64,000 bases of DNA from a virus. Below the pieces are notes generated by a model. The model saw nothing but the letters and a program-made list of their open reading frames with translations. It did not search any database and was not told the origin of the DNA. Below, piece after piece: positions 14,154 to 64,000 of this stretch. How positions within the stretch are numbered: the first letter of the stretch is position 1; every line of letters starts with the position of its first letter. The position numbers and the translations under genes are program-made. The stretch spans positions 64,001 to 128,000 of the IMG/VR virus record IMGVR_UViG_3300020183_000013; one strand, 5' to 3'.

Positions 14154-14225
14154 CTAACCTACAGAGGTGACAAAGAGCGTGAGAACTATAAGACATAAAA
14201 AAATTTTCCGTGGCCACAAGGACCT

Positions 14226-14378
14226 ATGAGACCCTTTTACTATACAAATAAGAAACAAAAACCTTATTGGAATTTCTGGAAGGTTGTACTTGCAGGATGG
14301 TTAATACGATATCCTAAGATAATCTGGGTGCCACTTGGGTTTCTTTTAGTTCTCATATATAATGCTGTGACAAGATAA
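14226..14378 (+). CDS. Small membrane protein (50 aa)
   Basis: PYWNFWKVVLAGWLIRYPKIIWVPLGFLLVLIYNAV. Confidence 0.6.
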   Translation: MRPFYYTNKKQKPYWNFWKVVLAGWLIRYPKIIWVPLGFLLVLIYNAVTR

Positions 14379-14383
14379 GGATT

Positions 14384-14581
14384 ATGGAAAAAATTTCCGG
14401 AGAAAAAATTTATCACATCTATGCTCAGGGAAAGTGCATCTACCATTCTTTGACGGAAGACGAGTTTCATACAACCTGGATCGCCCTCAAGCGCCTTGCA
14501 GAATTAGTGTCAGATCATTCGATACTTTCATACGAAGAAGTACTGACAAATAAGGCAATTGTCTTTGAGTCATCTCATTGA
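14384..14581 (+). CDS. Hypothetical protein
   Basis: AAGGA SD; 65 aa. Confidence 0.65.
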   Translation: MEKISGEKIYHIYAQGKCIYHSLTEDEFHTTWIALKRLAELVSDHSILSYEEVLTNKAIVFESSH

Positions 14582-14606
14582 CAAGACATATATAAACTGA
14601 TAAAAT
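14578..14606 (+). promoter_or_regulatory. Sigma70 promoter
   Basis: TTGACA-17-TAAAAT with extended TG. Confidence 0.75.
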
Positions 14607-14629
14607 TGAACTGAAACAAAAACAATCTT

Positions 14630-15397
14630 ATGGCAAAAGGATTTACAGTAAAAGCAGCATCTCCCAAACCAGCAGCAGAGCAATGGGACTATGAGGCTAT
14701 CAAAGAAAGAATGAAAGGAAAATCGATTGTTTTCTGTCTTCCTGGCAGAGGATGTTCGTTTATTTTTCTGAAGGCATTTGTACAACTTTGTTTTGATCTG
14801 GTACAAAACAATATGAGTATTCAGATTTCTCAGGATTACTCATCAATGGTAAACTTTGCACGTTGTAAAGTGCTTGGTGCAAATGTTCTCCGTGGTCCGA
14901 AGCAAATTCCTTGGGATGGTAAACTACAATATGATTATCAACTTTGGATTGATAGTGACATTGTATTCAACACTGAGAAGTTCTGGCAACTTTGTGATAT
15001 GGCTCTTTCTGCTGAAGGGGAAGAAAAAGAAATCGTTGCTGGATGGTATGCTACAGAAGATGGTCACACAACTTCAGTTGCTCATTGGTTGGAAGAAGAT
15101 GATTTCCGTAAGAACGGTGGTGTGATGAATCACGAAACCGTTGAATCAATTCAGAAGCGTCGTAAGCCATTTACCGTTGATTATACTGGATTTGGATGGG
15201 TTCTGATTAAGAACGGTGTCTTTGAAAATCTTGAGTATCCTTGGTTTGCTCCGAAGATGCAAGTATTTGAATCTGGTGCAGTTCAAGATATGTGTGGAGA
15301 AGATGTTTCATTCTGTCTCGATGCAAAAGAGACAGGATTTGAGATTTGGTGTGATCCACGTATTCGAGTAGGACACGAAAAGACTCGCGTAATCTAA
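14630..15397 (+). CDS. GT-A fold glycosyltransferase-like protein
   Basis: WIDSD (DxD) motif, YTGFGWVLIK, GEDVSFC, VGHEK. Confidence 0.8.
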   Translation: MAKGFTVKAASPKPAAEQWDYEAIKERMKGKSIVFCLPGRGCSFIFLKAFVQLCFDLVQNNMSIQISQDYSSMVNFARCKVLGANVLRGPKQIPWDGKLQYDYQLWIDSDIVFNTEKFWQLCDMALSAEGEEKEIVAGWYATEDGHTTSVAHWLEEDDFRKNGGVMNHETVESIQKRRKPFTVDYTGFGWVLIKNGVFENLEYPWFAPKMQVFESGAVQDMCGEDVSFCLDAKETGFEIWCDPRIRVGHEKTRVI

Positions 15398-18939: not shown

Positions 18940-21900
18940 ATGACAGAAAATAGAGTAAAAGTTTCTTCAGTTGTAAAAAATCAACTTCCTTCCTTTGTGC
19001 GAGAGGACTTTCCTCTTGTAGCAGAATTCTTAACTCAATATTACAAATCTCAAGAATATCAAGGTGCTCCAAAAGATTTACTTGAGAATATTGACAGATA
19101 TTTAAAGATTGATAATCTTACAAATTTAGTTGAAGAGACTACTCTTACTCAAGATATTAGTTTTTTTGAAACTGATATCAGAATTGATCCAACAACCATT
19201 AAAGGTTTCCCAGAAACCAATGGACTGGTTAAGATTGATGATGAAATTATCTTATATTCCGCTCTTTCAAAGTCTAACCCAACTTTCGAGTATCCAGATA
19301 CTTTATCTGGTTGTTCAAGAGGATTCAGTGGTGTAACGTCATACGAAGATTCGCAAAAAACTGATAAGTTAATTTTTAGTCAGAGTGAAGCGCAAGAACA
19401 TACTTTAGGAACTAAAGTAATTAACTTAAATGTTCTTTTTCTAAAAGAATTTCTTAAAAAAGTTAAAAAGCAATTTATTCCTGGATTTGAAGATAGGTTA
19501 TCCAGCGAAATCAATCAGAACGTCTTCATAAAGCAGTCAAATGACTTCTATACCTCAAAAGGAACTGATCAGTCATTTGAACTCCTTTTCAGAGCATTAT
19601 ACGGAGAAGATGTTCAAGTTATCAAACCAAGAGACTTTTTAATCAAACCCTCTTCTGCTGGTTATAGAGTTAGTTTAGATTTGGTCACGGAATTGGTTGA
19701 AGGTGATCCTTATCAATTACTGAACCAAACTTTGTATCAGAATGAATATTCTCAATATAATATCCCCAAGGCTTACGGTTCAATATCTAAGGTAGAAAAG
19801 GTTAGTTTTTCTGAAGAAAGTTATTATAAAATAAGTTTGGATTATGATTATGCTAAAGATATTAACCTAAGAGGAAGTGTCTTTGGAACTTTTTCTGTTC
19901 ATCCAAAAACAACACTAACTTTAGAAACTTCTATTGGATCTACATTTATTGATGTTGACTCTACAGTAGGATTCCCTGTTTCTGGCACATTAATTATCAG
20001 AAACAGTCAGGGAGTAGAGGAAACTGTTACTTATGCTGATAAGACAAATACACAGTTTTTAGGCGTACAAGGTCTTTCTATTGCCTTTGAGGCTGGGTCT
20101 CCAGTAACTCTGGATGTTTATTGCTTTGGATATTCGAAAGAAGACTCAAGTGAAGTTAAACTGAGAGTTAGATCAGTACTTTCTGATTTGAAAATAGAAG
20201 GTGACACATATTATTTTTCACCTAATGAAAAAATTAGAATTAAATCTTTAGGTATCATAAGTGATGATTCTAAAAAGAATGAGTGGATTTTAAATATCCC
20301 AAATAGATACGAATCAGTAAGAATTACTAGTTTTATCAGAAGAGATGAAGGTAGAAATGAATATATCTATAATTTAAGAACTCCAAATGAAAATTCAATC
20401 AACGTTGGTGATAGAGTAACATTAACGAGTAACACTATTAGAGGTGTAACTGGAACAGTAATTGGAATAGTCGATTCCAATACTTTTACTACATCTTTTG
20501 GGCAAAGTTTAAATCAGACAATAGATTATACTTTAAGAAAAACAATCTCAAAGGCATTCTCCTTAAAGTATCCAAATATCTCCAATTATACTACAAACGT
20601 TCAAAATACATACCTAAATTTCAAGGATGAAATTTTAGTTTCATCCTCATCAATTCCAAGTTATTATAGTGGTATAGACCCTGTAAGTATTAATGCATTT
20701 AATAAATCTTTTGTACTTCAAGATGGGATTTATAGTGAAGATACAACTTTAAATCTTTCCACATCAAATCCAAATTTATCTGATCACGAATTATATACAG
20801 GTGATTCTGTTTATTATAGTGGTCCAGAAAATCAAACATTCTTAGGATTAAATTCAGGAATATATTTTGTTAAGAGAGTTGATAATACCTCAATAAAACT
20901 TGCTAGAAGTAGATCAAATCTGTATGAAGGTGAGTTTGTAACTTTTACAGGTTCTATAAGTGGAAATAAATTAGATTATATTGATTTTTATAATAAGTCT
21001 CTTTATCCTCAAAATATTTTAAGGGAGATTAAAGATCCAGTAGATTTTGGTGGAGGTCACGAAACAAAACCAGGATCTGTTGGTATACTTGTTAATGGTG
21101 TAGAAATTTTAAATTATAAGTCCCAAGACTCTATTTTCTATGGAAAACTTGAAAGTATTGACGTAACATCACCTGGATCTAATTATGATGTTATTAACCC
21201 ACCAGTGCTTGAAATAAGTGATCCAACTGGAGTTGGTGCAACAGGAACTTGTTCAGTAATTGGATCTCTGAAAAGAATTGATCTCAAAGACCCAGGATTT
21301 GATTATATTTCAAAACCAGTAATTACAATTACTGGAGGTAATGGAACAGGTGCTCTTGCTGAAGTTACATTAAAAGATGTTGAGCATAACGTATTTTTTA
21401 ATGCTCTGTCTGGTATTAATACCAACAATAATACAATCGGATTTACAACTTATCACAAATTTAGAAATTCTGAGAGAGTAATATACAATAACTACGGACA
21501 AACTGCAGTTTCTGGATTAGTTACAAATTCAGATTATTATGTTTCTGTAGTAGATTTCAATACGATTAAATTACATTCCAACCAAGATGATGCTATCGTT
21601 GGATTAAATACTATTTCCTTGTCTCCTGGTGCGGGAGTTCAGGAACTTAAATCTTACTCAAGTAAAAAAATTATTGCCGGAATTGAAGTTATAAATTCTG
21701 GTTCTGGATATTGCACTAAAAAAAGATCTATAGTAGGAGTTAATACTGCAATAGATCAAATTAATATTAATAGACACGGTTATTCCAGTGGAGAAAAAGT
21801 AACCTATTATTCTGAAGGAACATCAATAGAAGGACTTGTACCAAGTACAACTTATTTTGTAGATGTTGTTGACTTTAATAATTTTAAACTTTGTGAAGTA

Positions 21901-24900
21901 GGAGTTGGAAATACTTCAGAGTATTTTTACTATGATAGCAAAAAATACGTTAATCTGAGATCTTCTGGATTAGGAACTCAGTTCTTCAAATATCCTGAGA
22001 TTACTGTAACAGTTTCTGGCAATATTGGAATTACTACACTGTTCAATCAAGATCTAAGCATTTTTGAGGCAAAAATCCAACCAGTTTTCAGAGGTGAACT
22101 AGAATCTATTGATGTTGTTGAATCCGGTTCTTCATATGGAAGCTCTGAGATTATTAACTTTGTGAAGCAACCTAACTTTATATTGAAGAGTGGTAAAAAT
22201 GCAGAACTTCAACCAGTAGTATCAAATGGTTCAATAGTTGATGTTTTAGTCCTTTCTGGAGGATCTGAATATAATTCACCACCTGATCTTGTGATAAGGG
22301 GTGATGGTTATGGTGCCAAGTTAACACCGATAATTTCTAATGGAGAAATTATCTCCGTTAAAATCATTAGAGGAGGAAATAATTATACACCAGGAACCTC
22401 CATCAGTGTGATTCCTGCAGGTCAAGGATGCAATCTAAATGCAAATATCCAAAAATGGACAATTAATGTTGTAGAAAAGAATATTCACAATATTGGAGCT
22501 GATGACGGATTCTTAGAGGTATCATCTAACAAGAAAGAACAGTTACAATATTATCATCTATATGCTCCAAGAAAACTGCGCGAGTCTGTATATTCACGCT
22601 CTATTGATAATTTAAAAGTTGATACTGATATTATTAAAAATAATGCTGGCGTAGAAATTTCTTCAAAAAATCATTCACCAATAATTGGTTGGGCATATGA
22701 TGGAAATCCAATTTATGGCCCATATGGTTATACTGAAAAATCAGGAGGAACAGTCAAGTTACTAACTTCTGGTTATGTTGCTACACTGAAAGCGAACAGA
22801 CCTCCCGAATATGTTGATGGAAAACTATCATATCCATTAGGATTTTTTATAGAAGATCACGATTATATTGGAAATTCTGATCTTGATGAACATAATGGAA
22901 GATTCTGTGTAACACCAGATTATCCAAATGGTACATATGCATATTTTGCTTCTATAGAATCTCTTCCTTCTGTTGGTGGAGTATTCAATAATTATAGAAA
23001 ACCCAAGTTCCCATATTTAATTGGAGACAGCTTTAAGTCAAAACCAAATAAATTTAATTTCAGTGCATTTTCCAATCAAAATTCAATAGATCTTAATGAG
23101 ACAGATTGGTTTAGAAATACATCATTCTTAAGAACCAGTTACTATGATTATATCTTTAATCCAAATAACTTTAAGAATCACAATTCTACAATTATATCCA
23201 CATCGGTAGGAACAATTGAATCTGTTGGTATTTTAACTGGAGGAGTAAACTATAAGGTAAATAATTCTGTTATCTTTGATAATTTAAATAGCGGCGGAGT
23301 AAATGCAAATGCAACTGTAGAAAGAGTTTCTGGAAAAACAGTTTCGAACATTAGTGTTGGTACAACTTTCATTACTGATGTTCAATTATTACCATCTCGT
23401 GGTGGTGAAATAATTGCATTTACCGAATATCCCCATAATTTAAACAATGATAATCTTACCCGTATTTCGGGAATTAATACTTCTACATCAGATATCTACG
23501 GATCGTATAACATAGGAGTATCTTCTAGTTTTTATATTCTAACTCAAGAGTTAGCAAACTCAGCAACTACCGGTATTACCACATACATCTTTGTTGATGG
23601 TAATATTTCTTTCCCATATCTTAGAGAAGATGATATTTTAACCATTGAATCTGAAAAAGTAAAAGTCCTTAATATTGACCTAGCACAATCTAGAATAAGA
23701 GTTAACAGAGAATATAATGGAACAACTGGTGCAGCACACACTGCAACAACAGTAATTTACAATGATTCAAGAACCTTTACTTTTACACACAATATCAAGG
23801 GACAAAATAATTTTGAAATTGATAGAAAATTATATTTCAATCCAATTGAAACAGTTGGATTAGGAACTATTGCCGGAGTAGGGATTGGAACAACATTATC
23901 ATTCTCAAACCCCGGAGTTGGAGTCACACAAAAGTTCATACCAACAAGAACTTTGTATTTACCAAATCACCAATTAAAAACTGGAGATTTACTAATCTAC
24001 TCAAGTGGTAATGGAAGCCCTATTTCCATATCCACAAATGGTATTTCAACATCATCTCTTACAAATTTACAAACAGTTTATGCAGCCAAGTTTTCAGATG
24101 ATCTAATTGGAATTTCAACTGTTAAAGTATATTTGAACTCCTCTGGTAACTTTGTAGGAGTTGCAAGTACTTCTAATAGTATTTTGTATTTCACTGGAAT
24201 CGGTACCGGTGTATATCACAGTTTTACAACTGTAAAAAATAATGTTCTTAAGTGTTTAGTAAGTAAGAACACAGTAACTGTATCGACTGCATCTACTCAC
24301 AACCTCAATTTAAAAGATAATGTAAAAATTGATGTAAATCCATCTATAGGATCTACTATTATTGTAAAGTATGATGATTATAATAGAAGAATTCTAATCA
24401 ATCCTAAGAGTTTCTTATCCTCAGATATTGATTTAACTGAAAATTCTATTTACTTACAAAATCATGACTTTAAGAATGGGGATAAAGTAGTATACACTGC
24501 AAACTCACCATCTGGTGGATTGGAAAACAATAGAATTTATTATGTATTTTCCTTTACTAAAGACAAGATAAAATTATGTGAAGATAGACACAAAGTTTTT
24601 TCTGAAAATCCAATATTTGTTGATATTACATCTGCAACTGATGGAACACTTTCGCCAATAAATCCACCAATCAAACTCTATAAAAATTCATCTGTTAAAT
24701 TTGATTTATCAGATTCATCTTTATCTGTTGTAAGAAATCTACAAAGATATCCTGCCTTTGAATTTAATATCTTTAAAGATTCTGAATTCAATTTCTTATT
24801 TGATTCTTCTGTACAGTCTAATAATTTTGAAGTAATTAGATCTACTGGAAGAGTTGGTATTGATGAATCTGCATCAGTAACCATTAGAATTAAAAATACT

Positions 24901-27900
24901 ACTCCAACAACACTTTATTACGACTTGACTCCTTTAGATAATTCAATTACAAGAAATAGTGATAAATTTGAAAAAATTATTGATAAAGAGGTTGTTAACA
25001 ACAATCAAATAACATTATTAAACAGCGGATATAGTGGATCTTATTCTGTTTCAGGAATAACTAGCACAACATTTAGTTATGATATTCAGAATGTACCCGA
25101 AAAATCTTCATACACTACTTCCGAAGCCTTTATAACTTATGATACTTCATCATTAACAGAATCTGGATCTATAACAAAGATTAAAGTTAATAATAGAGGA
25201 ATAAATTATAAAGTATTACCAGGAATTTCAACCGTTTCTACTCAAAATGGTTCTGGTGCTATTTTAGAACCTCAAAGTAGATCAATTGGAAAAATTATAT
25301 CAACAAAAATTGATGATATTGGATTTAATTATCCAACAGACTTTACTTTAAAACCAATAGTTAATGTTCCAGAAATTTTGAAAATGGAACAATTAACTTC
25401 ATTTGAAAAAATTGATGTTCTTACATATGGTAAAAATTACTTGGTTCCTCCTAGAATTATTGTTTTAGATGGATTTAGAAAAAATGTTGTAAATGATGTT
25501 ATATTGAGATTTGATTTTAGAAGTAAAGAATTAAAGATTGAAAAGAACACTTTTGGAATCTCCAATGTTGATCCAATCTTTATCCCTGTAAATAATTCTA
25601 ATGGCGTAGGAATTGGATCTATATCATTTAACCCATCAACTAAAAATGTCACTGTTAAGATGGGTGTTGGATTTAGCACGGATAATACATTCCCATTTGA
25701 AGTTGGTGATCGTGTTTTAATTGAAAATATTGGAATTACAACTTTAGGAAAAGGATATAATTCTTCTCAATATAACTATCAACTCTTTACATTAACAGAA
25801 GTCGATCAAAATATTGGTGGTATAGGATCAGTAACATATAATCTTTCTGACTTCTTATCTGATGGAGAATATCCAGGTATTTTTGATTCGGAAATTACTT
25901 CTGGAAGAATCATTCCAGAAAAGGATTTCCCAACCTTTAAGGCAATCTTGAAGAAGAATAACTTTATCATTGGTGAAGAAGTTGAAACTACAAATGGTTA
26001 TAATGGTGTTATTGAAAGTTGGAACTCAAACATTGAGTTATTAAAAGTTTCTTCCGATAGTGATTTTAAAATTGGAGAAACTGTAACTGGTAAGACCTCA
26101 AATACGCAAGGAATAATTAGAAGCAAAATTGATTTTGATGCGTATGTAAATCTAGATAGTAGTTCTTTAGTTTCTAGTGGATGGGAGTATGAGACTGGTA
26201 TTCTCAACAATTCTACTCAAAGAGTTCATGACAATGAATACTATCAAGATTTTTCATATTCTCTTAAGTCCAAAGTTTCATATGATGTTTGGGATAGTGC
26301 TGTAGATTCACTCAATCATACATCAGGATTCCTAAAGTTTAGTGATCTAATAGTTGAGTCTTCTCCTTCAGTTTCTGGATCACCAATAATAGCTCAAAAT
26401 GCAACCGAAACTTTGGTTGATATTGTTGAAGAAGTTGATACCAACTGTACATTTAATTTTGATTTGGTAACCGAAACTTCTTTCTCAATTGCCTCGGAGA
26501 CACTATCCAATCAAATTTTATTCAATAATAAAACTTTGATGGATTATTCTGAGTCAATTGGAAACAGAGTATTACTAATTGATGATATAAGTCCACAATT
26601 CAACAGCACTCCAAGACCAACCAATTTTTCTGTAGTTGGGTATTCAAGTGTTGATTCTCATTATAGAAAATATTTTGTTCACATTAGAGATAAGGTATTT
26701 TCTAAAGAACGTCAATTAATGTTGATTTCGGTTCTCCACGATGGATCCAATATATTTTCGAATCAATATGCAAAAGTCAATACTTATAGAGATCTTGGAT
26801 CTTTTGATTTCAAAATTTCTGGATTAGATTTACAATTTCTTTATTATCCAATTGATTTTGAAGTAAATGATTATAATGTTTCTCACGTTTCTTATGGATT
26901 AGAAGATGCATTCTCTGGAATTGGAACAGTTTCTCTAGGAGATTCTGTAAACATTGTAACTGATAGCATAGAAATTCAGTCTGGAATAACTACAACTGTT
27001 GTTGGAATTGCATCAACATATAGGTCTTCTAAGATTTTAGTTCTTGTAAATGATGTAGATAATAATGTTTACCAATCAAATGAACTTAGTGTTCTTTTTG
27101 ACGGTACTGATGTTAACCTGTTGGAGTACGGTCAACTTTCTAATGACAATCTGACCTCATTTGGATCTCCTGGTATAGGAACCTATGTGGTTTATTATGA
27201 TGCACTTTCATCACTAATTAATGTTGATTTTGTTCCAAGAGTTGGATTGGGAGCATCCTTGATAGCAAACACTATTTGTGTATCAATATCAAATACTTCT
27301 TCAGTTGGAGTTGGAACAACAGTTTTACAAACTGGTGATCTCAATTCTACAGTTACTTCAATAGCTTCTACTACGGCTCCAGTTCAAGTTCAAATTTCTC
27401 AGTTCCAATCACCACACGAATCTTCATATTGCATTGTAAGTATTGAAGATCTTACAAATAACCAATATAGAATGTCGGAGGTTGTTTCAATAACTGATGA
27501 TGATAATGCATATTTTGTTGAATATGGAATTATTGAAACTGGAAGCGGAATTGGAACAATTGGAATAGGCACAACTACTTCAAATAAAGTAAATCTATAT
27601 TTTACTCCTAATGCAAATACAGAGACTCAAGTTAGAGTTTTCCAAAATTCTCTCAGTCTTCAGGATGATGAAATTGAACTTGCATTAATAGATCTTAACA
27701 ATGGCGAAATTGAGTCTGGTTATGGAGAATATACCGGTATTGAAAAATCGGTCAGAAAAGATTTCAATTTAACTCATAAAGGAAATCAAATTTTTGAGCG
27801 CACATTTGTTGGTAGCAGTTCAACAACGGTTGATGTTGCTACAAATACTATTCTAATTCCAAATCACTTCTTCGTAACTGGAGAAAAACTAACTTATACC

Positions 27901-50589: not shown

Positions 50590-50621
50590 TTTTTAAATAA
50601 ACTTAACAGGAGATTAAACCA

Positions 50622-54317: not shown

Positions 54318-55499
54318 ATGTCTCGTGGTACACAATTACAAGAAATGGAAGTAGGCACAAAGCAATCCAAAACTGCCGTTAATGTTAATGCTAAGGCAGC
54401 AGATCCAATGCCTAAGGCTGGAAGCAATGCTTCTAATGTAATGGTTGATGGTCAAACTGGCAGTTGGGAAGATCTTGGAGGTCCTACTCCAGACAACTAC
54501 AGACCAGATGATGAGTCTGCTCATCTCAAAACACCCGGTGCAGCACTTAAGCAAGTTAAGAATGTTGTAACTAAGGGTGCTAAAGCAGCAGATGCAATGG
54601 GTCACTTAAAGCCTGGTGCTGTTAAGGAAGAAGAAGATTATGAGGATGAGGATCTTGTTGATGAAGAAGAACTCGAAGATGAAGAGGTAGTTTCCGAAGC
54701 CGAGGAAAAGGAAGAGGATGAAGATGAAGAGGATGAAGATGAAGAGGATGAAGAAGAAATGAAGGAAGAGTTTGACATCGATGAAGATGTCAATGCACTT
54801 CTTTCTGGTGAAGAACTCTCCGAAGAATTCCAAGAGAAAGCGAAAACTATTTTCGAAGCTGCTCTCAGAAGTAAGGTTTCCGATATTAAAGAAACTTTAG
54901 AAGTTCAATATGAAGAGCGCCTTATTGAAGAGGTTGCTGAAATTAAGACCGTTCTTGAAGAGCGTGTCGATGCATACCTAGAGTATGTTGCCGAAGAATG
55001 GATGACCGAGAATCAACTAGCAGTTGAGCAAGGTCTGAAGGAAGAACTCTCAGAGTCATTCCTCTCAGGTCTGAAAGGTCTTTTTGAAGAACATTATGTA
55101 ACAATCCCTGAAGAAAAATATGATATACTCCATAGCATGGTAGAAAAACTTGATGAAATGGAAGAAAAACTCAACGAGCAAATTGAGAAAAATATCCATC
55201 TGAACAAGCGTCTCGCAGAGTCGGTTGCAGAAGGAATCTTTGATGAGATTTCTGAGGGTCTAGCACTTTCTCAGAAAGATAAGCTCGCTTCACTTGCCGA
55301 AAGTGTTGAGTTTGAAAGTGAGGCACAATATCGTGAAAAACTGGAAACTCTGAAGGAATCATATTTTCCTTCAAAGGCAGTTTCTCCAAAGGCAAAAACT
55401 GAAACTCTTTCTGAAGGAGTAGACGTTGCTCCTGAGTATTACTCAGATTCAATGAATGCTTATCTAAAAGCTCTTTCAGTTACTTCGCCCAAAAACTGA
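54318..55499 (+). CDS. gp22: Prohead core scaffold gp22
   Basis: Acidic coiled coil; LSEEF.EKAKTIFEAA, YL.YVAEEW..EN; lies between gp21 and gp23. Confidence 0.93.
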   Translation: MSRGTQLQEMEVGTKQSKTAVNVNAKAADPMPKAGSNASNVMVDGQTGSWEDLGGPTPDNYRPDDESAHLKTPGAALKQVKNVVTKGAKAADAMGHLKPGAVKEEEDYEDEDLVDEEELEDEEVVSEAEEKEEDEDEEDEDEEDEEEMKEEFDIDEDVNALLSGEELSEEFQEKAKTIFEAALRSKVSDIKETLEVQYEERLIEEVAEIKTVLEERVDAYLEYVAEEWMTENQLAVEQGLKEELSESFLSGLKGLFEEHYVTIPEEKYDILHSMVEKLDEMEEKLNEQIEKNIHLNKRLAESVAEGIFDEISEGLALSQKDKLASLAESVEFESEAQYREKLETLKESYFPSKAVSPKAKTETLSEGVDVAPEYYSDSMNAYLKALSVTSPKN

Positions 55500-55541: not shown

Positions 55542-56957
55542 ATGTTCAATAACGAGCATCTGCAGGAAAAGTGGGCTCCCCTTCTGAACTATGAGGGTCT
55601 TGATCCTATCAAAGATTCACACAGAAGAGCTGTAACCGCTGTCCTGCTCGAAAACCAAGAGAAATTCCTTAGAGAGGAGCAATCCTTTGCACAGTCAGGT
55701 TCATTCCTGACCGAAGCTCCAACCAACTCTGCTAACGGCACTGGTGCTGGTGGTGGTTTTGGTGGTGGTGCAACCGCTGGCGGTCCTGTAGCAGGTTTCG
55801 ACCCTGTTCTGATCTCTCTGATCCGCCGTGCAATGCCCAACCTGGTCGCATATGACCTGGCTGGCGTTCAACCAATGAACGGTCCTACTGGACTGATTTT
55901 CGCAATGCGTTCACGCTACACCAACCAGTCTGGCGCTGAAGCACTGTTCAACGAAGCAGATACTCGCTTCTCTGCACAGAACGCAACTAACACCCTGACT
56001 CAGGGTAGCGACTACGCTGGTGGTGCTGGTATCGGTACTACCGCTGCTCAGAGCGGAACCAACCCTGGTCTGCTGAATGCTGCAGCTGCAACCCCATACA
56101 CCCTGAGTGGTGGTATGCACACTGGTGACGCTGAGAACCTCGGTTCCAGTGTTGCATTCAACGAGATGGCATTCTCAATCGAGAAAGTCACCGTTACTGC
56201 AAAGTCACGCGCTCTGAAGGCTGAGTACTCACTTGAGCTCGCTCAAGACCTCAAGGCGATTCACGGTCTGAATGCTGAGGCAGAACTTGCCAACATTCTT
56301 TCAACCGAGATCCTCGCTGAAATCAACCGCGAAGTTATCCGTACCATCTATAACGTTGCTGAAGCTGGTGCTCAGGCAAACGTTGCTACTGCTGGTACTT
56401 TTGACCTCGACGTTGATTCAAACGGTCGTTGGTCTGTTGAGAAGTTCAAGGGTCTCCTGTTCCAAATCGAGCGTGATGCTAACGCAATCGCACAAAGAAC
56501 TCGTAGAGGAAAAGGTAACATCATCCTATGCTCCGCTGACGTTGCTTCAGCACTGAGTATGGCTGGTGTTCTTGATTACACCCCTGCACTCAACGCTAAC
56601 CTGAACGTTGATGACACTGGTAACACCTTCGCAGGTACTCTGCTTGGTAAGTTCCGCGTCTACATCGACCCATATGCTGCAAACGTAGATTCTAACCAGT
56701 ATTACGTTGTTGGTTATAAGGGTTCTTCACCTTATGACGCAGGTCTGTTCTATTGCCCATACGTTCCTCTCCAAATGGTTCGTGCCGTTGGCGAGAACAC
56801 CTTCCAGCCAAAAATCGGCTTTAAGACTCGTTATGGCATTGTTGCTAACCCATTCGCTGAAGGCGGTCTCTCCTCTGGAGCTGCTACCTCACTGGGTAAA
56901 CTCAATGCAAGTGCAAACCGTTACTACAGAAGAGTTCTCGTTAAGAACCTTATGTGA
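55542..56957 (+). CDS. gp23: Major capsid protein gp23
   Basis: GVQPM.GPTGLIFAMR, KSRALKAEYSLELAQDLKAIHG, FQPKIGFKTRYG. Confidence 0.99.
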   Translation: MFNNEHLQEKWAPLLNYEGLDPIKDSHRRAVTAVLLENQEKFLREEQSFAQSGSFLTEAPTNSANGTGAGGGFGGGATAGGPVAGFDPVLISLIRRAMPNLVAYDLAGVQPMNGPTGLIFAMRSRYTNQSGAEALFNEADTRFSAQNATNTLTQGSDYAGGAGIGTTAAQSGTNPGLLNAAAATPYTLSGGMHTGDAENLGSSVAFNEMAFSIEKVTVTAKSRALKAEYSLELAQDLKAIHGLNAEAELANILSTEILAEINREVIRTIYNVAEAGAQANVATAGTFDLDVDSNGRWSVEKFKGLLFQIERDANAIAQRTRRGKGNIILCSADVASALSMAGVLDYTPALNANLNVDDTGNTFAGTLLGKFRVYIDPYAANVDSNQYYVVGYKGSSPYDAGLFYCPYVPLQMVRAVGENTFQPKIGFKTRYGIVANPFAEGGLSSGAATSLGKLNASANRYYRRVLVKNLM

Positions 56958-58015: not shown

Positions 58016-58044
58016 ATAAATACTCATAGCAATTATTATTGTTT

Positions 58045-59508
58045 ATGAGTGACGTAACAATTCATAAGAAAAATGAGGTTTACATCAAGTTAGAATGTGA
58101 ACCTCATATTTTATATGAACTTCAACAGTATTTTACATTTGAAGTTCCAGGTTCTAAGTTTATGTCCCAATATCGCAACAAACATTGGGATGGACAAATA
58201 AAATTGCTATCGGTTCATACGGGAGAAATCTATGCTGGTCTCCTTGATAAAGTCGTTTCAAAGTTAAAAATACACGGATATAATTATCAGTTTAAAGATA
58301 ATAAGTATTACGGCCTTCCATTTGAAGTTAATGAAGAAATATCATTTGAAGGCGTAAAAGATTATATGTCTTCTATTTGCACTCACTCTCCTCGGCAGTA
58401 TCAAATAGAGGGAGTACACGATGCTCTAAAACATAATAGAAAACTATTGATAAGTCCCACTGCATCAGGCAAAAGTCTGATGATTTATTCGCTCGTAAGG
58501 TATTACGTTGATAAGCAGAAAAAAATACTTTTAGTTGTTCCAACGACATCTCTTGTAGAACAAATGTATAAGGACTTTTGTGATTACGGATGGGATGCTG
58601 ATTCATATTGCTATAAAATATATGGAGGAAGAGAAAGAAACAACACTCACCCCGTAACTATTACTACTTGGCAATCTATCTATACTCAAGACAAGTCATT
58701 TTTTGAAGACTATGAAGTAATTATTGGTGATGAAGCGCACCTTTTTAAAAGTAAGTCTTTGATATCAATTATGACTAAGCTTCATCACGCAAAATATCGT
58801 TTTGGATTTACAGGTACATTAGATGGAACTCAGACTCATAAATGGGTTCTTGAAGGAGTATTTGGACCATCATATAAAGTTACAAGAACTGCAGAATTGA
58901 TGGAACAAGGCCACGTATCTAAATTAAACATACGTTGTTTAGTCTTAAAGCACAAACCTCAAAAGTTTGAAACGTTTGAAGATGAAGTTCAATTCATTAT
59001 AGGAAATGAAAAAAGGAACAAGTTTATAAAAAATCTTGTATTAGATCTAAAAGGAAATACTTTAGTTCTTTTTTCTAGGATCGAAGCTCACGGTCGACCT
59101 TTATATGAATTAATAAATAACAGTGTTGGTGAAAATAGAAAAGTATTTTTTGTTCACGGTGGTGTAGCTACAGTTGAGAGAGAAGAAATTAGAGAAATTA
59201 CTGAACGTGAAACGGATGCAATTATCGTTGCTTCATACGGAGTATTTTCGACAGGAATCAACATTCGAAATTTACATAATGTCGTTTTTGCTTCTCCAAG
59301 CAAATCTAGAATACGTAATTTACAGTCAATTGGAAGAGTCCTAAGAAAAGGAAAAGATAAGAGTAAAGCAATGTTGTATGATATATCTGATGATTGTACT
59401 TATAACTCAAGAAAAAATTATACACTTAATCACTTCATAGAAAGAATTAAAATTTATAATGAAGAGCAATTCAATTATGAAATAATCACTGTAAATTTAA
59501 AAGTATGA
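58045..59508 (+). CDS. uvsW: SF2 helicase UvsW
   Basis: SPTASGKS, DEAH, TGT, STGINI, QSIGR.LR. Confidence 0.96.
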   Translation: MSDVTIHKKNEVYIKLECEPHILYELQQYFTFEVPGSKFMSQYRNKHWDGQIKLLSVHTGEIYAGLLDKVVSKLKIHGYNYQFKDNKYYGLPFEVNEEISFEGVKDYMSSICTHSPRQYQIEGVHDALKHNRKLLISPTASGKSLMIYSLVRYYVDKQKKILLVVPTTSLVEQMYKDFCDYGWDADSYCYKIYGGRERNNTHPVTITTWQSIYTQDKSFFEDYEVIIGDEAHLFKSKSLISIMTKLHHAKYRFGFTGTLDGTQTHKWVLEGVFGPSYKVTRTAELMEQGHVSKLNIRCLVLKHKPQKFETFEDEVQFIIGNEKRNKFIKNLVLDLKGNTLVLFSRIEAHGRPLYELINNSVGENRKVFFVHGGVATVEREEIREITERETDAIIVASYGVFSTGINIRNLHNVVFASPSKSRIRNLQSIGRVLRKGKDKSKAMLYDISDDCTYNSRKNYTLNHFIERIKIYNEEQFNYEIITVNLKV

Positions 59509-59958: not shown

Positions 59959-59962
59959 GTAC

Positions 59963-61556: not shown

Positions 61557-61558
61557 TA

Positions 61559-61837
61559 ATGTATATAATCACATTAGATGGTAGGGAAGAGGAAGGTGCT
61601 TATTCCGTAAAAAACGAAGATGGAGAACAAGTTCTCTATATTTGGGAACACGAGGATGATGCAACAAGATTTGCTATGATGCTTGAAGACCGAGACTATC
61701 CTGATATGAATGTGATGGAAATTGATGACGAACTAATAATCAAAGCTTGCGAACTTCACGATTATCAATATATTGTCTTTACACCTGACGATATTGTAAT
61801 TCCACCTGATCAAAATATTAAAAATGATTTTATTTGA
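61559..61837 (+). CDS. DUF3110-like protein
   Basis: EGAYSV...E.EDDATRFAMMLE...IVIPP. Confidence 0.7.
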   Translation: MYIITLDGREEEGAYSVKNEDGEQVLYIWEHEDDATRFAMMLEDRDYPDMNVMEIDDELIIKACELHDYQYIVFTPDDIVIPPDQNIKNDFI

Positions 61838-63536
61838 AAAAATTCGTTGGAAAAACTTCCTTTCAACAGGAAATCAATTTTCGGAAGTTGACTTTCAAAA
61901 GTCAGCAACAACATTAATTATTGGTACGAATGGCGCAGGAAAGAGTACTGTTCTTGATGCCATGACTTTTGTGTTGTTTGGCAAATCATTTCGTGGAATT
62001 AACAAACCTCAACTTATCAACTCTACAAATGATAAAGATTGTTTGGTTGAAATTGAGTTCACTGTAGGAAAAACTTCCTTTAAAGTTCGTCGTGGAATCA
62101 AACCAAGTATTTTTGAAATTTATAGAAACGATTCCCTCATTGATCAAAGCTCTTCTGTAGTTGATCAACAGAAGTGGTTTGAACAAACAATACTAAAAAT
62201 GAATTATAAATCTTTCACTCAGATTGTGATTCTAGGTAGTAGTAATTTTGTTCCATTTATGCAACTATCTCCTTCTCATAGAAGAGAGGTAATTGAGGAT
62301 CTCTTGGATATTAAGATATTCTCTTCTATGAATAATATCATTAAAGATAAGTTAAGATCTCTTAAAGAAAATATCAGGACTCTTGAACTTAAAAAGGAGT
62401 CTCTGGACGATAAAGTTAAAATGCAAAAAAACTTTATTGAAGAACTTGAAAATAGAGGAAAGGAAAATATTAAAAAAAGTCAAAGTATAATTTCTTCTCT
62501 AGATGTAGAAATTGAAACCTTTATGAAAGAGAATGCTCTACTTGAAGAGGATATTTTTGTAAAGCAAAAAAATCTTGAAGATTATGTTGGGTCTTCGGAT
62601 AAACTCAGTAAGCTTAATAATCTTAAGGGTAAGATATCACAAAAAGTATCTACGATAGTAAAAGAGCACAAGTTCTTTAGTGGCAATACGGTATGCCCCA
62701 CTTGCACACAATCAATCGATGAGTCCTTTAGACTAAATAAAATTGCAGACGCTCAAAATAAGACTAATGAGTTGCAATCTGGTTACAAAGAACTAGAGGA
62801 GGCAATTAAAGAGGAAGAGGATCGTGAGCGTCAATTTACAATTCTCTCGAAAGAGGTTACAAACCTAACGTATGGCATTTCTCAAAACAATATTAAGATC
62901 TCTGGATGTCAACGACAAATCAGAAATCTTGAATCGGAAATTCAAAGAATTACCGAACAACTTGAAAATCGAAATACTGAACATGAAAAGTTAGAGTTGT
63001 TTAAGAAAGAACTTCAATCTACATTTGATGATCTTTCTACTCAAAAAGAAACAATTAAATATTACGATTTTTCATACAGTCTTCTAAAAGACGGTGGTGT
63101 AAAAACTAAAATCATTAAAAAGTATCTGCCATTAATTAATCAGCAGGTGAACAGATACCTACAAATGATGGACTTTTACATCAATTTTACTCTAGACGAA
63201 GAGTTTAACGAAACAATTCAGTCACCAATTCACGAAGATTTTTCATATAGTTCATTTAGTGAAGGTGAGAAATCTCGTATCAATCTTTCATTGACATTTG
63301 CTTGGAGAGAAGTTGCCAAACTCAAAAATTCAGCCAATGTCAATGTGATTTTCTTTGATGAAGTATTTGATTCATCACTCGATGGATTTGGAACTGACGA
63401 CTTTCTAAAAATTATTAGATATGTCATTAAAGATACTAATGTATTCGTGATCTCTCATAAGAATGGTTTAGAGGACAAATTTGAAAGTGTCATAAAGTTT
63501 GAGAAGGTTAAAGGTTTTTCTCGTATGGTGGCCTGA
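61824..63536 (+). CDS. gp46: Recombination ATPase gp46 (Rad50/SbcC-like)
   Basis: GTNGAGKS, CPTC zinc hook, FSEGEK signature, FFDEVFD. Confidence 0.96.
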   Translation: MILFEKIRWKNFLSTGNQFSEVDFQKSATTLIIGTNGAGKSTVLDAMTFVLFGKSFRGINKPQLINSTNDKDCLVEIEFTVGKTSFKVRRGIKPSIFEIYRNDSLIDQSSSVVDQQKWFEQTILKMNYKSFTQIVILGSSNFVPFMQLSPSHRREVIEDLLDIKIFSSMNNIIKDKLRSLKENIRTLELKKESLDDKVKMQKNFIEELENRGKENIKKSQSIISSLDVEIETFMKENALLEEDIFVKQKNLEDYVGSSDKLSKLNNLKGKISQKVSTIVKEHKFFSGNTVCPTCTQSIDESFRLNKIADAQNKTNELQSGYKELEEAIKEEEDRERQFTILSKEVTNLTYGISQNNIKISGCQRQIRNLESEIQRITEQLENRNTEHEKLELFKKELQSTFDDLSTQKETIKYYDFSYSLLKDGGVKTKIIKKYLPLINQQVNRYLQMMDFYINFTLDEEFNETIQSPIHEDFSYSSFSEGEKSRINLSLTFAWREVAKLKNSANVNVIFFDEVFDSSLDGFGTDDFLKIIRYVIKDTNVFVISHKNGLEDKFESVIKFEKVKGFSRMVA

Positions 63537-63550
63537 ACCACCTAAGAACA

Positions 63551-63772
63551 ATGCAAGTCCCAAACTGGAAGCACCATTCTAAAAAAGAACAAAAACGAAA
63601 ATTAAAACCGCAAGCACTGAGGCAAGCAAAAGCAAGACTAGCCCAGTTCAAAAAGCGTCATATGGGTCGTCCAAAGGGCGACCTTTCGTTTTATGATGGT
63701 CTCATACGAAACGAATCAAATGTCTGTTCGCCACGAAATCAAATCTCAACTTGCGAAACTTCTTGCCACTGA
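63551..63772 (+). CDS. Small basic hypothetical protein
   Basis: NWKHHSKKEQKRKLKPQALRQAKARL. Confidence 0.6.
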   Translation: MQVPNWKHHSKKEQKRKLKPQALRQAKARLAQFKKRHMGRPKGDLSFYDGLIRNESNVCSPRNQISTCETSCH

Positions 63773-64000
63773 AGATTTGGTGGTGGAACATAAGAAAGTT
63801 TCTACTGCTTGTTTTAATGTTCATACTCGTGTGTTGACTCTTCCCCTTTGGGAGAAAGCAAGTAACCTTGTCTATGATCTTCTTGTGGGGCACGAAGTTG
63901 GCCACGCTCTCTTTACTCCTGATGAAGACTGGATTCAAAAACATAAGATTCCTCCTCAATTTGTGAATGTGGTTGAGGATGCTCGCATCGAGAAACTGAT
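63720..64000 (+). CDS. HEXXH metallopeptidase/CobT-like protein (3' truncated by the window edge)
   Basis: Read manually: MSVRHEIKSQLAKLLATEDLVVEH...HEVGHALFT...NVVEDARIEK. Confidence 0.85.
   Translation, partial: MSVRHEIKSQLAKLLATEDLVVEHKKVSTACFNVHTRVLTLPLWEKASNLVYDLLVGHEVGHALFTPDEDWIQKHKIPPQFVNVVEDARIEKL

What the first reader, a model, noticed from the sequence alone, without database searches (positions are those of the whole stretch)
14200..64000. CATG is almost absent from core genes but more common in the accessory region
Seen by eye: only about six CATG in roughly 50 kb of core (24463, 26227, 28537, 55136, 61961, 62982), with none spotted in gp17, gp20, gp23 or uvsW. Base composition predicts on the order of one per 300-350 bp. 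His codons before G are repeatedly CAC despite AT-rich usage. At least 14 occur in the first 12.7 kb (e.g. 262, 308, 379). GATC and TGCA are abundant. Inference: long-term selection against a CATG-cutting (NlaIII-type) host system or against the phage's own nuclease, with recently acquired cassettes not yet purged. Counts are manual and may miss a few.
Basis: partly seen in the sequence, partly recalled or inferred. Interest (0 to 1): 0.7.

Follow-up and report, generated by a model that had tools for sequence, protein, structure and literature searches.

The report
CATG purge in a marine cyanophage
A T4-like cyanophage has removed about nine in ten of the CATG words expected in its DNA, the mark of selection against a CATG-cutting nuclease, and the leftover sites cluster in a swappable gene island flanked by the phage's own nuclease and methylase genes.

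Summary
The window has 20 CATG: 14 in 1-12614 and 6 in 14200-64000. The core expects about 124 (O/E 0.05). The whole 137.6-kb contig has 39 against 422 expected.

Composition, dinucleotides and codon usage do not explain this. Synonymous-codon shuffles give 54±5.5 for the core, and all three reading-frame contexts avoid the word.

The purge is lineage-specific among cyanomyoviruses. 10 of 80 portal-gene loci are strongly depleted, scattered over the tree. One relative has 0 CATG against 352 expected in 105 kb.

Most likely CATG is the target of a restriction-type endonuclease, probably a host type II system (about 0.5).

ORF 13310 is a PvuII-like nuclease. It has a partner NPPF methylase 42 bp upstream of the window. 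The two genes are adjacent in 7 relatives, and here they flank the CATG-richer island.

Carrying this pair goes with CATG depletion. In one clade, carriers have O/E 0.11 and non-carriers 0.52, and no other palindrome differs nearly as much. But near-identical nucleases also sit in CATG-rich DNA.

Self-avoidance of the phage's own nuclease is therefore a serious rival (about 0.28). Site avoidance is a known kind of thing. This case and the gene pair were not found in print.

The parts
1..13309 (.). Hypervariable island. It is bounded by the NPPF methylase gene (contig 63386-63958, ending 42 bp before the window) and the nuclease gene. It is the CATG-richer 'accessory' region.
   Evidence: It holds 14 CATG inside the window and one more 3 bp before it. 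Between the two genes: 15 observed against 67.2 expected (O/E 0.22). The flanks are at 0.06-0.07. CCGG is 0 against 11 inside. The two bounding genes are adjacent (gap 6-41 bp) in 7 other loci.
10305..10796 (+). ArdA-like anti-restriction gene
   Evidence: PHROG 36653 'anti-restriction protein', E 2.8e-47. Pfam ArdA scores only 21.1 bits, below the cut-off of 27.
10991..11932 (+). DUF6267 gene. The window reads TATG at 11020 and 11228.
   Evidence: Pfam DUF6267, E 3.5e-78. At 11020, three relatives (L082, L083, L085) read CATG. At 11228, those three and L091 read CATG.
13310..13828 (+). PvuII-like PD-(D/E)xK nuclease candidate (P0001, 172 aa)
   Evidence: PHROG 35715, function unknown. D59, E69 and K71 are invariant in 28 homologues. 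Family member P0133 passes Pfam PF09225 Endonuc-PvuII at 30.6 bits against a cut-off of 25. P0001 itself has no Pfam hit. An Atlas feature match of homologue P0047 to a PvuII-domain cluster scores 0.95. The gene contains no CATG.
14630..15397 (+). Conserved gene (PHROG 1574), used as the shared marker for the carrier versus non-carrier tree
   Evidence: PHROG 1574, E 1.4e-116. Tree.
14200..64000 (.). Structural and replication core with near-total CATG loss
   Evidence: 6 observed against 123.8 Markov-expected and 54.0±5.5 codon-shuffle-expected.
18940..31239 (+). Giant baseplate gene (gp7-like, 4099 aa) holding three surviving sites (24463, 26227, 28537)
   Evidence: All three sites are His-CAT followed by G, in frame. 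The gp7 assignment rests on synteny with P-SSM2.
46441..48084 (+). Terminase large subunit (gp17), no CATG
   Evidence: PHROG 2, E 8.7e-77. Positions.
51265..52956 (+). Portal protein (gp20), no CATG. Used to fetch 80 related loci.
   Evidence: PHROG 213, E 4.4e-228..
54318..55499 (+). Head scaffolding protein (gp22) with the surviving site 55136
   Evidence: PHROG 237..
55542..56957 (+). Major head protein (gp23), no CATG
   Evidence: PHROG 138, E 2.5e-171..
58039..59508 (+). UvsW-type DNA helicase, no CATG
   Evidence: PHROG 16, E 1.2e-117. Synteny with P-TIM68 and S-SM2.
61824..63536 (+). SbcC-like gp46 with the surviving sites 61961 and 62982
   Evidence: PHROG 77, E 6.1e-181..

Best explanation
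CATG has been purged from this T4-like cyanophage by natural selection, because it is the recognition site of a restriction-type endonuclease that the phage DNA meets during infection.

The most likely agent is a host type II restriction-modification system with NlaIII-like (CATG) specificity. Each site removed raises the chance that an unmodified genome survives entry into such a host. Sites are removed by whatever synonymous change is open: NNC to NNT before Met, His CAT to CAC before G, and NCA to NCB before TG.

DNA that arrives by recombination brings CATG back. This applies to the island between the phage's methylase and nuclease genes, and to two small ORFs beside tail-fibre genes. These stretches are only partly purged, or not at all.

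Shown: the depletion, its independence from composition and codon usage, its lineage-specific and repeated occurrence, and its heterogeneity along the contig.

Inferred: that a nuclease is the agent, and that it is host-encoded.
For: 1. Size and specificity.
- CATG is 39 against 422 over 137.6 kb (O/E 0.09). It is the strongest outlier among 4-mers.
- All 10 NCATGN contexts are at O/E 0.20 or below, so the 4-mer itself is the target.

2. Selection, not bias.
- Codon shuffles give 54±5.5 against 6 in the core and 85±6.9 against 14 in the left 64 kb.
- Context-specific codon choice is seen in all three frames.
- Where relatives have CATG, depleted phages have TATG 64, CACG 44, AATG 23 and CTTG 23. 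That is several different mutation types, all synonymous escapes (pooled over 15 overlapping pairwise comparisons).

3. Lineage-specific and labile.
- 10 of 80 gp20 loci have O/E at or below 0.33. The other 70 lie between 0.42 and 0.96.
- The state needs 10 changes on the gp20 tree, at least 6 of them forced by supported branches.
- The depleted loci differ from the rest only in CATG: 0.18 against 0.64.

4. The same family shows other near-total purges of 4-bp palindromes with no link to the nuclease gene.
- S-SM2 has CTAG 0 against 69.
- Syn9 has CCGG 0 against 13. S-SZBM1 has CCGG 0 against 15.
- L011 has TCGA 0 against 21.
- So a site-purging pressure that does not depend on the nuclease gene acts generally in this family; host restriction is the usual cause.

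5. The contig carries other anti-restriction equipment.
- ArdA-like gene.
- Mom family gene, 77.7 bits.
- NPPF methylase.

6. Residual sites fit a host system that the phage can escape by becoming modified. There are 39 here, and 22-42 in related contigs.

7. Heterogeneity fits recent import.
- The island is at O/E 0.23 (P=9e-4 against uniform depletion).
- The ORFs at contig 50183-50972 are at 1.1 (5 against 4.4, P=6e-5).
- The second of these ORFs has no relative in IMG/VR.
- Part of the first matches a Pelagibacter phage at 67% nucleotide identity.
Against: - No host is known, and no CATG-specific host system could be looked for. Both genome-contig scans gave no cyanobacterial handle.
- CATG depletion is specifically associated with carrying the phage's own nuclease/methylase pair, which a pure host model does not predict.
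  - 34 of 48 carrier loci have O/E at or below 0.35, against 10 of 80 gp20 loci.
  - In clade II of the marker tree, carriers have 92 against 808 (0.11) and non-carriers 426 against 819 (0.52). Mann-Whitney p=1.3e-6, not corrected for phylogeny. The other 15 palindromes differ little or not at all (CCGG p=0.016; the rest p above 0.09).
- None of 9 named isolates tested shows extreme CATG loss, so no cultured host is implicated.
- A phage that carries a methylase should need less avoidance, if that methylase covered CATG.
Confidence: 0.5

Rival explanations
1. Self-avoidance. The phage's own PvuII-like nuclease (13310-13828) and its partner NPPF methylase form a phage-borne type II R-M-like pair that recognises CATG. 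The nuclease destroys host or competing-phage DNA. The phage protects itself by methylation and, increasingly, by purging the site. A genome that has lost every site can lose the methylase.
For: Gene pair.
- Nuclease and methylase homologues are adjacent (gap 6-41 bp) in 7 loci.
- They are 3 kb apart in 4 loci, 6.6 kb apart in P-SSM2, and 10-15 kb apart in G003, G008, G012 and this contig.
- The methylase was found in 14 of 56 records searched. All 14 are nuclease carriers. None of the 8 non-carrier contigs has it, two complete genomes included.
- A giant-virus MAG homologue sits convergent with a PF01555 methylase.

Association with CATG.
- After the correction, 10 of 10 clade-II carriers have O/E at or below 0.35, against 2 of 19 non-carriers.
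- The carriers fall in about 4 separate lineages.
- Among 16 palindromes CATG alone differs strongly (p=1.3e-6); CCGG differs weakly (p=0.016).
- The three named isolates that carry the gene were isolated on Prochlorococcus, and the seven named non-carriers tested on Synechococcus.

Other points.
- The one carrier with over 70 kb of upstream sequence and no methylase (G025) has CATG 0 against 352.
- The methylase has the NPPF amino-methylase motif, and CATG contains an adenine.
Against: - Nuclease sequence does not track CATG status. The states are intermixed on the nuclease tree: 8 changes, and 48 of 500 shuffles do as well. L105 (O/E 0.75) groups with L111 (0 against 33).
- Carriers with 85-92% identical nucleases and no stops have plentiful CATG on both sides: L098 0.92 and 0.56, L105 0.86 and 0.63, L110 0.58 and 0.65.
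- Seven nuclease genes contain CATG themselves: L086, L087, L105, L109, L110, L118 and L119.
- P-SSM2 (0.45), P-TIM68 (0.54), L118 (0.82) and L119 (0.59) carry the gene with baseline CATG.
- This phage keeps 39 sites.
- G025 also has CCGG 0 against 99, which an adenine methylase pair cannot explain.
- Only about 4 independent contrasts exist, and the tool's own pair test cannot reach significance.
- The recognition site of the nuclease is unknown.
Confidence: 0.28
2. Methylation-dependent restriction. The phage's NPPF methylase marks CATG, and some hosts carry a methyl-directed (type IV or type IIM) nuclease that cuts the marked sites. Methylase carriers then purge the site in those hosts only.
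For: - It would explain why depletion goes with carrying the pair, yet varies among carriers with near-identical genes.
- Parallel oddity: L123 and L128 lack GATC (0 against 34 and 0 against 43), and their contigs carry a D12-class methylase. L127 also lacks GATC (0 against 39), but none was found on its contig.
Against: - There is no evidence for the methylase's specificity, or for such a host enzyme.
- G025 has no methylase on 105 kb, yet has zero CATG.
- A phage could simply lose the methylase.
Confidence: 0.07
3. Mutational decay. CATG is lost through a directional mutation process, for instance deamination of a methylated cytosine giving TATG and CATA, without selection.
For: TATG is the commonest replacement (64 of the pooled comparisons).
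Against: - CACG (44), AATG (23) and CTTG (23) need T to C, C to A and A to T changes. No single pathway fits.
- An O/E of 0.00-0.05 is far below what decay alone would be expected to leave.
- No C5 methylase family (PF00145) was found on the contig.
Confidence: 0.04
4. Chance, base composition, dinucleotide or codon bias.
For: Family-wide baseline O/E for CATG is already 0.4-0.6, so part of the deficit is general.
Against: - Markov z is -12.6 (core) and -18.6 (contig).
- No codon shuffle (minimum 38 of 300) comes near 6.
- Close relatives with the same composition have 5-10 times more sites.
Confidence: 0.01

Closest known systems
Restriction-site (palindrome) avoidance in phage genomes. Source: Rusinov et al. 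2018, BMC Genomics, PMC6286503; only the search listing and the start of the abstract were seen. The complete absence of GATC from Staphylococcus phage K is recalled, not checked.
   Same: A short palindrome is strongly under-represented relative to Markov and codon expectation. The pattern is lineage-specific and is achieved by synonymous changes.
   Different: The host and its enzyme are unknown here. The word is CATG. Depletion ranges from baseline to absolute (0 against 352) among close relatives. It co-varies with a phage-borne nuclease/methylase pair.
CATG-specific type II systems NlaIII (Neisseria lactamica) and CviAII (chlorovirus PBCV-1), both with N6-adenine methylases. Recalled, from no call.
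   Same: The recognition word is the same. An adenine methylase would protect it.
   Different: No homology test to these enzymes could be made, because no reference sequence was available to the tools. The phage nuclease looks PvuII-like, and PvuII cuts CAGCTG. CAGCTG is not depleted here beyond its AGCT core (12 against 9.6).
Virus-encoded R-M systems of chloroviruses (host DNA degradation) and marseilleviruses (exclusion of competing viruses). Source: Jeudy et al. 2020, PMC7253447; passages read.
   Same: A virus carries a nuclease gene next to a methylase gene. The proposed use is against host or rival DNA.
   Different: Those viruses protect themselves by methylation, and site purging is not reported in the passages read. 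Here the pair is split by a 13.4-kb island, and its activity and specificity are untested.
PvuII restriction endonuclease family (Pfam PF09225)
   Same: Length is about 160-170 aa. The D-x9-E-x-K catalytic spacing is present. A family member passes the Pfam threshold. A methylase gene is adjacent in relatives.
   Different: P0001 itself gives no Pfam, NCBIfam or PDB sequence hit. The partner is an NPPF-motif methylase with weak hits to N6-adenine methylase families. PvuII's partner is an N4-cytosine methylase (recalled).

Membership tests
Restriction-site avoidance in a phage genome | A short palindromic word far below the Markov expectation and an outlier among all words of its length | tested here: met
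   CATG is 6 against 123.8 in the core (z -12.6) and 39 against 422 on the contig. It is the lowest of all 4-mers.
Restriction-site avoidance in a phage genome | Not explained by amino-acid content or codon usage | tested here: met
   Codon shuffles give 54.0±5.5 against 6. Context-specific synonymous choice is seen in all three frames.
Restriction-site avoidance in a phage genome | The host carries an R-M system of that specificity | not testable with these tools
   The host is unknown. Both genome-contig scans gave no cyanobacterial genome handle. Literature searches for CATG or NlaIII with cyanophage or Synechococcus found nothing relevant.
Restriction-site avoidance in a phage genome | Lineage-specific: relatives with other histories keep the word | tested here: met
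   70 of 80 gp20 loci lie at 0.42-0.96. All 9 named isolates tested lie at 0.45-0.96.
PvuII-like type II restriction endonuclease (PF09225), for ORF 13310-13828 | Match to the family HMM above the curated threshold | tested here: not met
   P0001 has no Pfam hit even at E up to 10. Homologue P0106 scores 15.9 bits, below 25. Only family member P0133 passes, at 30.6 bits. The link is therefore transitive.
PvuII-like type II restriction endonuclease (PF09225), for ORF 13310-13828 | Conserved PD...(D/E)xK catalytic residues | tested here: met
   D59, E69 and K71 are invariant in 28 sequences. My regex for the motif matched 41 of 49 carrier rows. The 8 misses are 7 divergent homologues and 1 truncated row, and were not examined further.
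PvuII-like type II restriction endonuclease (PF09225), for ORF 13310-13828 | PvuII fold | not testable with these tools
The Atlas had no structure for the homologue.
PvuII-like type II restriction endonuclease (PF09225), for ORF 13310-13828 | Cognate methylase gene next to it | tested here: met
   Adjacent in 7 related loci. Split by 13.4 kb in this contig. The methylase was found only in nuclease carriers.
PvuII-like type II restriction endonuclease (PF09225), for ORF 13310-13828 | Sequence-specific cleavage blocked by the partner's methylation | not testable with these tools
   This needs enzyme assays.
CATG-specific R-M (NlaIII or CviAII type), for the phage pair | Recognition of CATG | tested here: inconclusive
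   For: the CATG-specific association in clade II and G025 with 0 against 352 and no methylase. Against: CATG-rich carriers, and CATG inside the nuclease genes.
Amino-methyltransferase, putatively N6-adenine (contig 63386-63958, just outside the window) | Catalytic (D/N/S)PP(Y/F) motif and a match to methylase families | tested here: met
   NPPF at residue 85. PHROG 799 'DNA methyltransferase', E 1.2e-33. The window phage's own Pfam hits are below threshold (Eco57I 20.1 against 25.3). The L118 homologue passes (26.3). N6 versus N4 is not resolved.
ArdA anti-restriction protein, for ORF 10305-10796 | Match to Pfam ArdA above threshold | tested here: not met
   21.1 bits against a cut-off of 27. 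PHROG 36653 'anti-restriction protein' matches at 2.8e-47.

The most novel reading that the evidence does not exclude
Marine T4-like cyanophages carry a previously unrecognised type II R-M-like pair of their own: a PvuII-like nuclease plus a minimal NPPF methylase. In this reading it recognises CATG.

The phage uses the nuclease against host or rival-phage DNA. It tells self from non-self first by methylation, and then by purging every CATG from its genome. The methylase can then be lost, as in the 105-kb relative with 0 CATG against 352 expected.

The window phage would be an intermediate. It has 39 sites left and has kept the methylase. The two genes have been driven 13.4 kb apart by an insertion hotspot that keeps importing CATG.
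Probability: 0.25. Interest if true: 0.8.

Novelty: new member of a known kind. Interest (0 to 1): 0.5.

Why it matters
From recall, marine picocyanobacteria are thought to have few defence systems, and their phages' hosts are mostly unknown. A near-absolute, lineage-specific purge of one 4-bp word is a genomic record of a strong CATG-specific nuclease acting in the sea. Other words are purged in sister lineages: CTAG, CCGG, GATC and TCGA.

This could be used to link uncultured phages to hosts by R-M specificity.

If the rival reading holds, it would give a concrete mechanism for how T4-like cyanophages could spare their own DNA while degrading host DNA. As far as I recall, these phages lack T4's hydroxymethylcytosine.

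Either way, the nuclease/methylase pair that flanks the hypervariable island is a concrete, testable gene pair. It is present in the cultured phages P-SSM2 and P-SSM5.

Tried and rejected
Approaches that led nowhere, and ideas rejected:
- Sequence and profile searches of the PDB found nothing meaningful.
- Pfam and NCBIfam on P0001 were empty.
- Host side. A profile scan of 185,579 prokaryote genomes for the nuclease family found no relative.
- A scan with the phage peptide deformylase, meant to yield a cyanobacterial genome handle, returned 80 loci. None was cyanobacterial. So no search for host CATG systems was possible.
- psbA is absent from the contig.
- D12-methylase co-occurrence does not separate CATG-rich from CATG-poor carriers. 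It was found in 4 of 48 records, and 3 of those 4 are CATG-poor.
- PF02086, PF01555 and PF00145 are absent from the contig. The NPPF methylase escaped these three models and was found later.
- Longer target words were rejected. All ten NCATGN contexts are depleted, which rules out NspI, SphI, NcoI, PciI and BspHI types.
- CAGCTG, the PvuII site, is not depleted beyond its AGCT core (12 against 9.6).
- A candidate site shared only by carriers was sought among 4- and 6-bp palindromes. The near-absent 6-mers (ACGCGT, GACGTC, GTCGAC, CTCGAG, GTGCAC) are just as absent in non-carrier sets.
- Counting CATG in whole phage records with the genome search failed because the pattern is too short.
- The tool's independent-pairs test had too few contrasts to reach significance.
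- Literature. Searches for CATG with cyanophage, restriction site avoidance with cyanophage, palindrome avoidance with cyanophage, NlaIII with Synechococcus, and cyanophage with restriction endonuclease and methyltransferase found no report of this purge or of the gene pair. Subscription journals and supplements were not searchable.
- The look-up of sequencing runs, read laying, complex prediction and the metagenome-contig scan were not used.

Limits of my own methods:
- Gene calls for the codon tests come from a crude ATG-only ORF picker of mine (166 ORFs).
- O/E thresholds (0.35) were set after seeing the bimodal spread.
- The marker tree kept 42 of 66 rows. It dropped rows with unknown nuclease status or fewer than 15 expected CATG.
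- additionally left out near-duplicates: L082, L104, L181, L094 and L087.
- L130 was scored as a non-carrier and corrected to carrier.
- 'Non-carrier' means no homologue on the DNA held. Most contigs are fragments.

Full report
**What the window is.** The window is bases 64001-128000 of a single 137,575-bp IMG/VR virus record, which CheckV estimates as 64% complete. It is a T4-like cyanomyovirus.
- The gp17/gp18 region matches S-SM2, P-TIM68 and Sf-CH8 at 73-76% nucleotide identity.
- PHROG profiles name gp25, gp6, gp8, terminase, sheath, portal, scaffold, major head protein, UvsW-type helicase and gp46.
- Gene order follows P-SSM2, P-TIM68 and S-SM2.
- No tRNA gene was found.

**The observation.**
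- In the core, base composition predicts 159 and the maximal-order Markov model 123.8. O/E is 0.05 and z is -12.6. This is the lowest of all 4-mers; the next is CCGG at 0.52.
- GATC (196 against 231) and TGCA (234 against 263.5) are near expectation.
- The first 14.2 kb is itself depleted 5-fold (14 against 70.1). It differs from the core (binomial p=0.0037).
- Over the whole contig there are 39 CATG against 422 expected.
- All ten NCATGN contexts are at O/E 0.20 or below, so the 4-mer itself is what is missing.

**Not codon or composition bias.** I shuffled synonymous codons among 35 core ORFs (my own crude ATG-only gene calls).
- The core gives 54.0±5.5 CATG (minimum 38 in 300 shuffles) against 6 observed.
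- The left 64 kb gives 85.1±6.9 against 14.

The avoidance is visible in each reading-frame context.
- His before G is CAT 4 and CAC 40. Before other bases it is CAT 78 and CAC 47.
- NNC before ATG is 3%, against 21-25% elsewhere.
- NCA before TG is 0 of 36, against 43-46% elsewhere.

**Substitution spectrum.** Where non-depleted relatives have CATG, depleted phages carry TATG (64), CACG (44), AATG (23), CTTG (23) and many others. These are pooled over 15 overlapping pairwise comparisons at 72-83% identity. Several mutation types are involved and all are synonymous escapes. This points to selection, not to one mutational pathway.

**Distribution among relatives: portal-gene loci.**
- Of 80 IMG/VR loci fetched with the portal protein, 10 have CATG O/E at or below 0.33. 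The other 70 lie between 0.42 and 0.96.
- On a gp20 tree the depleted state needs 10 changes, at least 6 forced by supported branches. It is no more clustered than shuffled labels.
- The ten depleted loci differ from the rest only in CATG: 0.18 against 0.64.

**Distribution among relatives: larger contigs and isolates.**
- G025, 105 kb, has CATG 0 against 352 and CCGG 0 against 99.
- G030, 40 kb held, has CATG 0 against 102.
- G049, 20 kb held, has CATG 0 against 49.
- G051, 60 kb, has CATG 15 against 153.
- Nine named isolates lie between 0.45 and 0.96: P-SSM2, P-TIM68, S-SM2, Sf-CH8, S-SKS1, S-SZBM1, Syn9, S-SCSM2R and Bellamy.

**Other words purged in the family.**
- S-SM2 has CTAG 0 against 69.
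- CCGG is 0 or near 0 in P-SSM2, Syn9, S-SZBM1 and S-SCSM2R.
- GATC is 0 against 34-43 in L123, L127 and L128.
- TCGA is 0 against 21 in L011.
- A set of GC-rich 6-bp palindromes is almost absent from every set examined. In 809 kb of gp20 loci, GTGCAC is 1 against 95 and GACGTC 1 against 72.

Purging of short palindromes is thus a general habit of this family. CATG is the word purged in the window's lineage.

**Heterogeneity along the contig.** I tested stretches against a uniform depletion factor of 0.089.
- Window -10 to 12700 holds 15 CATG against 64.3 expected (O/E 0.23, P=9e-4).
- Two small ORFs at contig 50183-50972, beside tail-fibre-like genes, hold 5 against 4.4 (O/E 1.1, P=6e-5).
- Everything else lies at 0.00-0.12.
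- The first of these ORFs partly matches a Pelagibacter podophage at 67% nucleotide identity. The second has no relative in IMG/VR.

**The island.** The island has its own fingerprint: CCGG 1 against 17.2, against 16 against 30.7 in the core (p=0.009).
- The closest relatives (L082, L083, L085) are 97% identical just downstream of the island. Inside it they are only 84-93% identical, or unalignable.
- Two positions (11020, 11228) read TATG in the window. At 11020, three relatives read CATG. At 11228, four do.

All this fits DNA that turns over by recombination and is purged afterwards.

**The nuclease at 13310 and its partner.** P0001 (172 aa) has no Pfam, NCBIfam or PDB sequence match. Other evidence links it to PvuII.
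- It has an invariant D59...E69-x-K71 motif in 28 homologues.
- Its family comprises 234 representative clusters. One member, P0133, passes Pfam's PvuII model at 30.6 bits against a cut-off of 25.
- A homologue's language-model features match a PvuII-domain cluster at 0.95.
- No relative was found in 185,579 prokaryote genomes.
- Among isolates only P-SSM2, P-SSM5 and P-TIM68 carry it.

In seven related loci the next gene, 6-41 bp away, is a 170-190 aa methylase with an NPPF motif. In a giant-virus MAG the neighbour is a convergent PF01555 methylase. The window's contig has this NPPF methylase at 63386-63958 (PHROG 799, E 1.2e-33), which ends 42 bp before the window.

The distance between the two genes varies.
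- 3 kb in 4 loci.
- 6.6 kb in P-SSM2 (PSSM2_078 and PSSM2_100.1).
- 10-15 kb in G003, G008 and G012.
- 13.4 kb here.

The methylase was found in 14 of 56 records, all of them nuclease carriers. It was found in none of 8 non-carrier contigs, two complete genomes included. The CATG-richer 'accessory region' is exactly the DNA between the two genes: 15 against 67.2 inside, and O/E 0.06-0.07 outside.

**Does the pair cause the purge? Evidence for.**
- 34 of 48 nuclease-bearing loci have CATG O/E at or below 0.35. Eleven of them have none. Among gp20 loci the figure is 10 of 80.
- On a tree of a shared neighbouring gene, clade II holds carriers in about four lineages among non-carriers. After correcting L130, whose contig carries the pair 3.8 kb beyond the locus, 10 of 10 carriers are depleted against 2 of 19 non-carriers.
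- Pooled O/E is 0.11 for carriers against 0.52 for non-carriers (Mann-Whitney p=1.3e-6, uncorrected for phylogeny). Of the other 15 palindromes only CCGG differs weakly (p=0.016).
- G025 has the nuclease but no methylase within 72 kb upstream. It has no CATG at all.

**Does the pair cause the purge? Evidence against.**
- Clade I consists only of carriers and sits at baseline (0.46 pooled).
- On the nuclease tree, depleted and normal loci are intermixed (8 changes; 48 of 500 shuffles do as well). L105 (0.75) groups with L111 (0 against 33).
- L098, L105 and L110 have plentiful CATG on both sides of the gene.
- Seven nuclease genes contain CATG themselves.
- P-SSM2, L118 and L119 have the pair with O/E 0.45-0.82.
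- This phage keeps 39 sites.
- G025's equal purge of CCGG cannot be the work of an adenine-methylase pair.
- The independent contrasts are too few for the tool's pair test.

**Verdict on mechanism.** Selection against a CATG-specific endonuclease is well supported; I give it about 0.8 for either origin.
- A host type II system is the more economical agent (0.5). The family purges other words without any such gene. Residual sites are tolerable under a host system that a phage can escape by modification. The contig also carries other anti-restriction genes: ArdA-like, Mom family and the methylase.
- The phage's own pair as the cause is a serious rival (0.28).
- A methyl-dependent variant is a minor one (0.07).
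- The host could not be examined.

**Known or new.**
- Restriction-site avoidance by phages is long established (PMC6286503; listing and abstract only).
- Virus-borne R-M pairs are known from chloroviruses and marseilleviruses (PMC7253447; passages).
- Five literature searches found no report of CATG purging in cyanophages, or of this nuclease/methylase pair.

I file the finding as a new member of a known kind. The split gene pair and its CATG-specific association are the part worth following.

Noticed in passing
contig 63386-63958 (42 bp upstream of the window) and window 13310-13828: A minimal NPPF methylase and a PvuII-like nuclease form a conserved pair in cyanomyoviruses. They are adjacent in 7 loci and split by 3-15 kb of hypervariable DNA in others. 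P-SSM2 annotates the nuclease homologue as hypothetical.
   Followed up: yes
L001-L080 and L130-L209 (IMG/VR cyanomyovirus loci): GC-rich 6-bp palindromes are almost absent family-wide. In 809 kb of gp20 loci: ACGCGT 0 against 24, CGTACG 0 against 18, GTGCAC 1 against 95, GACGTC 1 against 72, GTCGAC 1 against 38, GCATGC 2 against 73, CTCGAG 1 against 36. The gp6 set is similar.
   Followed up: partly
L226 (S-SM2, NC_015279.1 73932-116169): There is no CTAG at all in 42 kb (0 against 69 expected), while CATG is at baseline.
   Followed up: no
G025 (L210-L215) and G030 (L219-L220): These are whole contigs with zero CATG and zero CCGG. G025 has 0 against 352 and 0 against 99 in 105 kb, with GGCC 12 against 81.
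   Followed up: partly
L123, L127, L128: GATC is completely absent (0 against 34-43). The contigs of L123 and L128 encode a D12-class (Dam-like) adenine methylase near the nuclease/methylase pair. None was found on L127's contig.
   Followed up: no
contig 7978-8586 (outside the window): This is a Mom-family DNA-modification gene (Pfam PF25680, 77.7 bits; PHROG 1384). It is another possible anti-restriction function in the same phage.
   Followed up: no
window 1-14199: The island avoids other words more strongly than the core does. CCGG is 1 against 17.2 and AGCT 8 against 26.1, against 16 against 30.7 and 51 against 93.2 in the core. GC is 0.38-0.47 against 0.31-0.39.
   Followed up: partly
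L225 (P-TIM68, NC_028955.1 75987-117907): CpG-containing palindromes are nearly absent. CCGG is 0 against 0, TCGA 0 against 6 and GGCC 0 against 6, which suggests very low CpG overall.
   Followed up: no
contig 22155-22538, 32705-33148 and 50183-50650: Three paralogous small ORFs (N-termini MAHFA.../MAHYA.../MANFA...) each sit beside tail-fibre-like genes. Only the third copy carries CATG (2 sites). Part of it resembles a Pelagibacter podophage gene at 67% nucleotide identity.
   Followed up: partly
window 376-386 and contig 137099-137109: The same 11-mer, GAACATGCAGA, surrounds a surviving CATG in two different small ORFs. These may be paralogues.
   Followed up: no
P0158 (557 aa): This is a distant member of the nuclease family. 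The nuclease domain (residues 391-557) is fused behind a Zeta-toxin/AAA_33 kinase-like domain.
   Followed up: no
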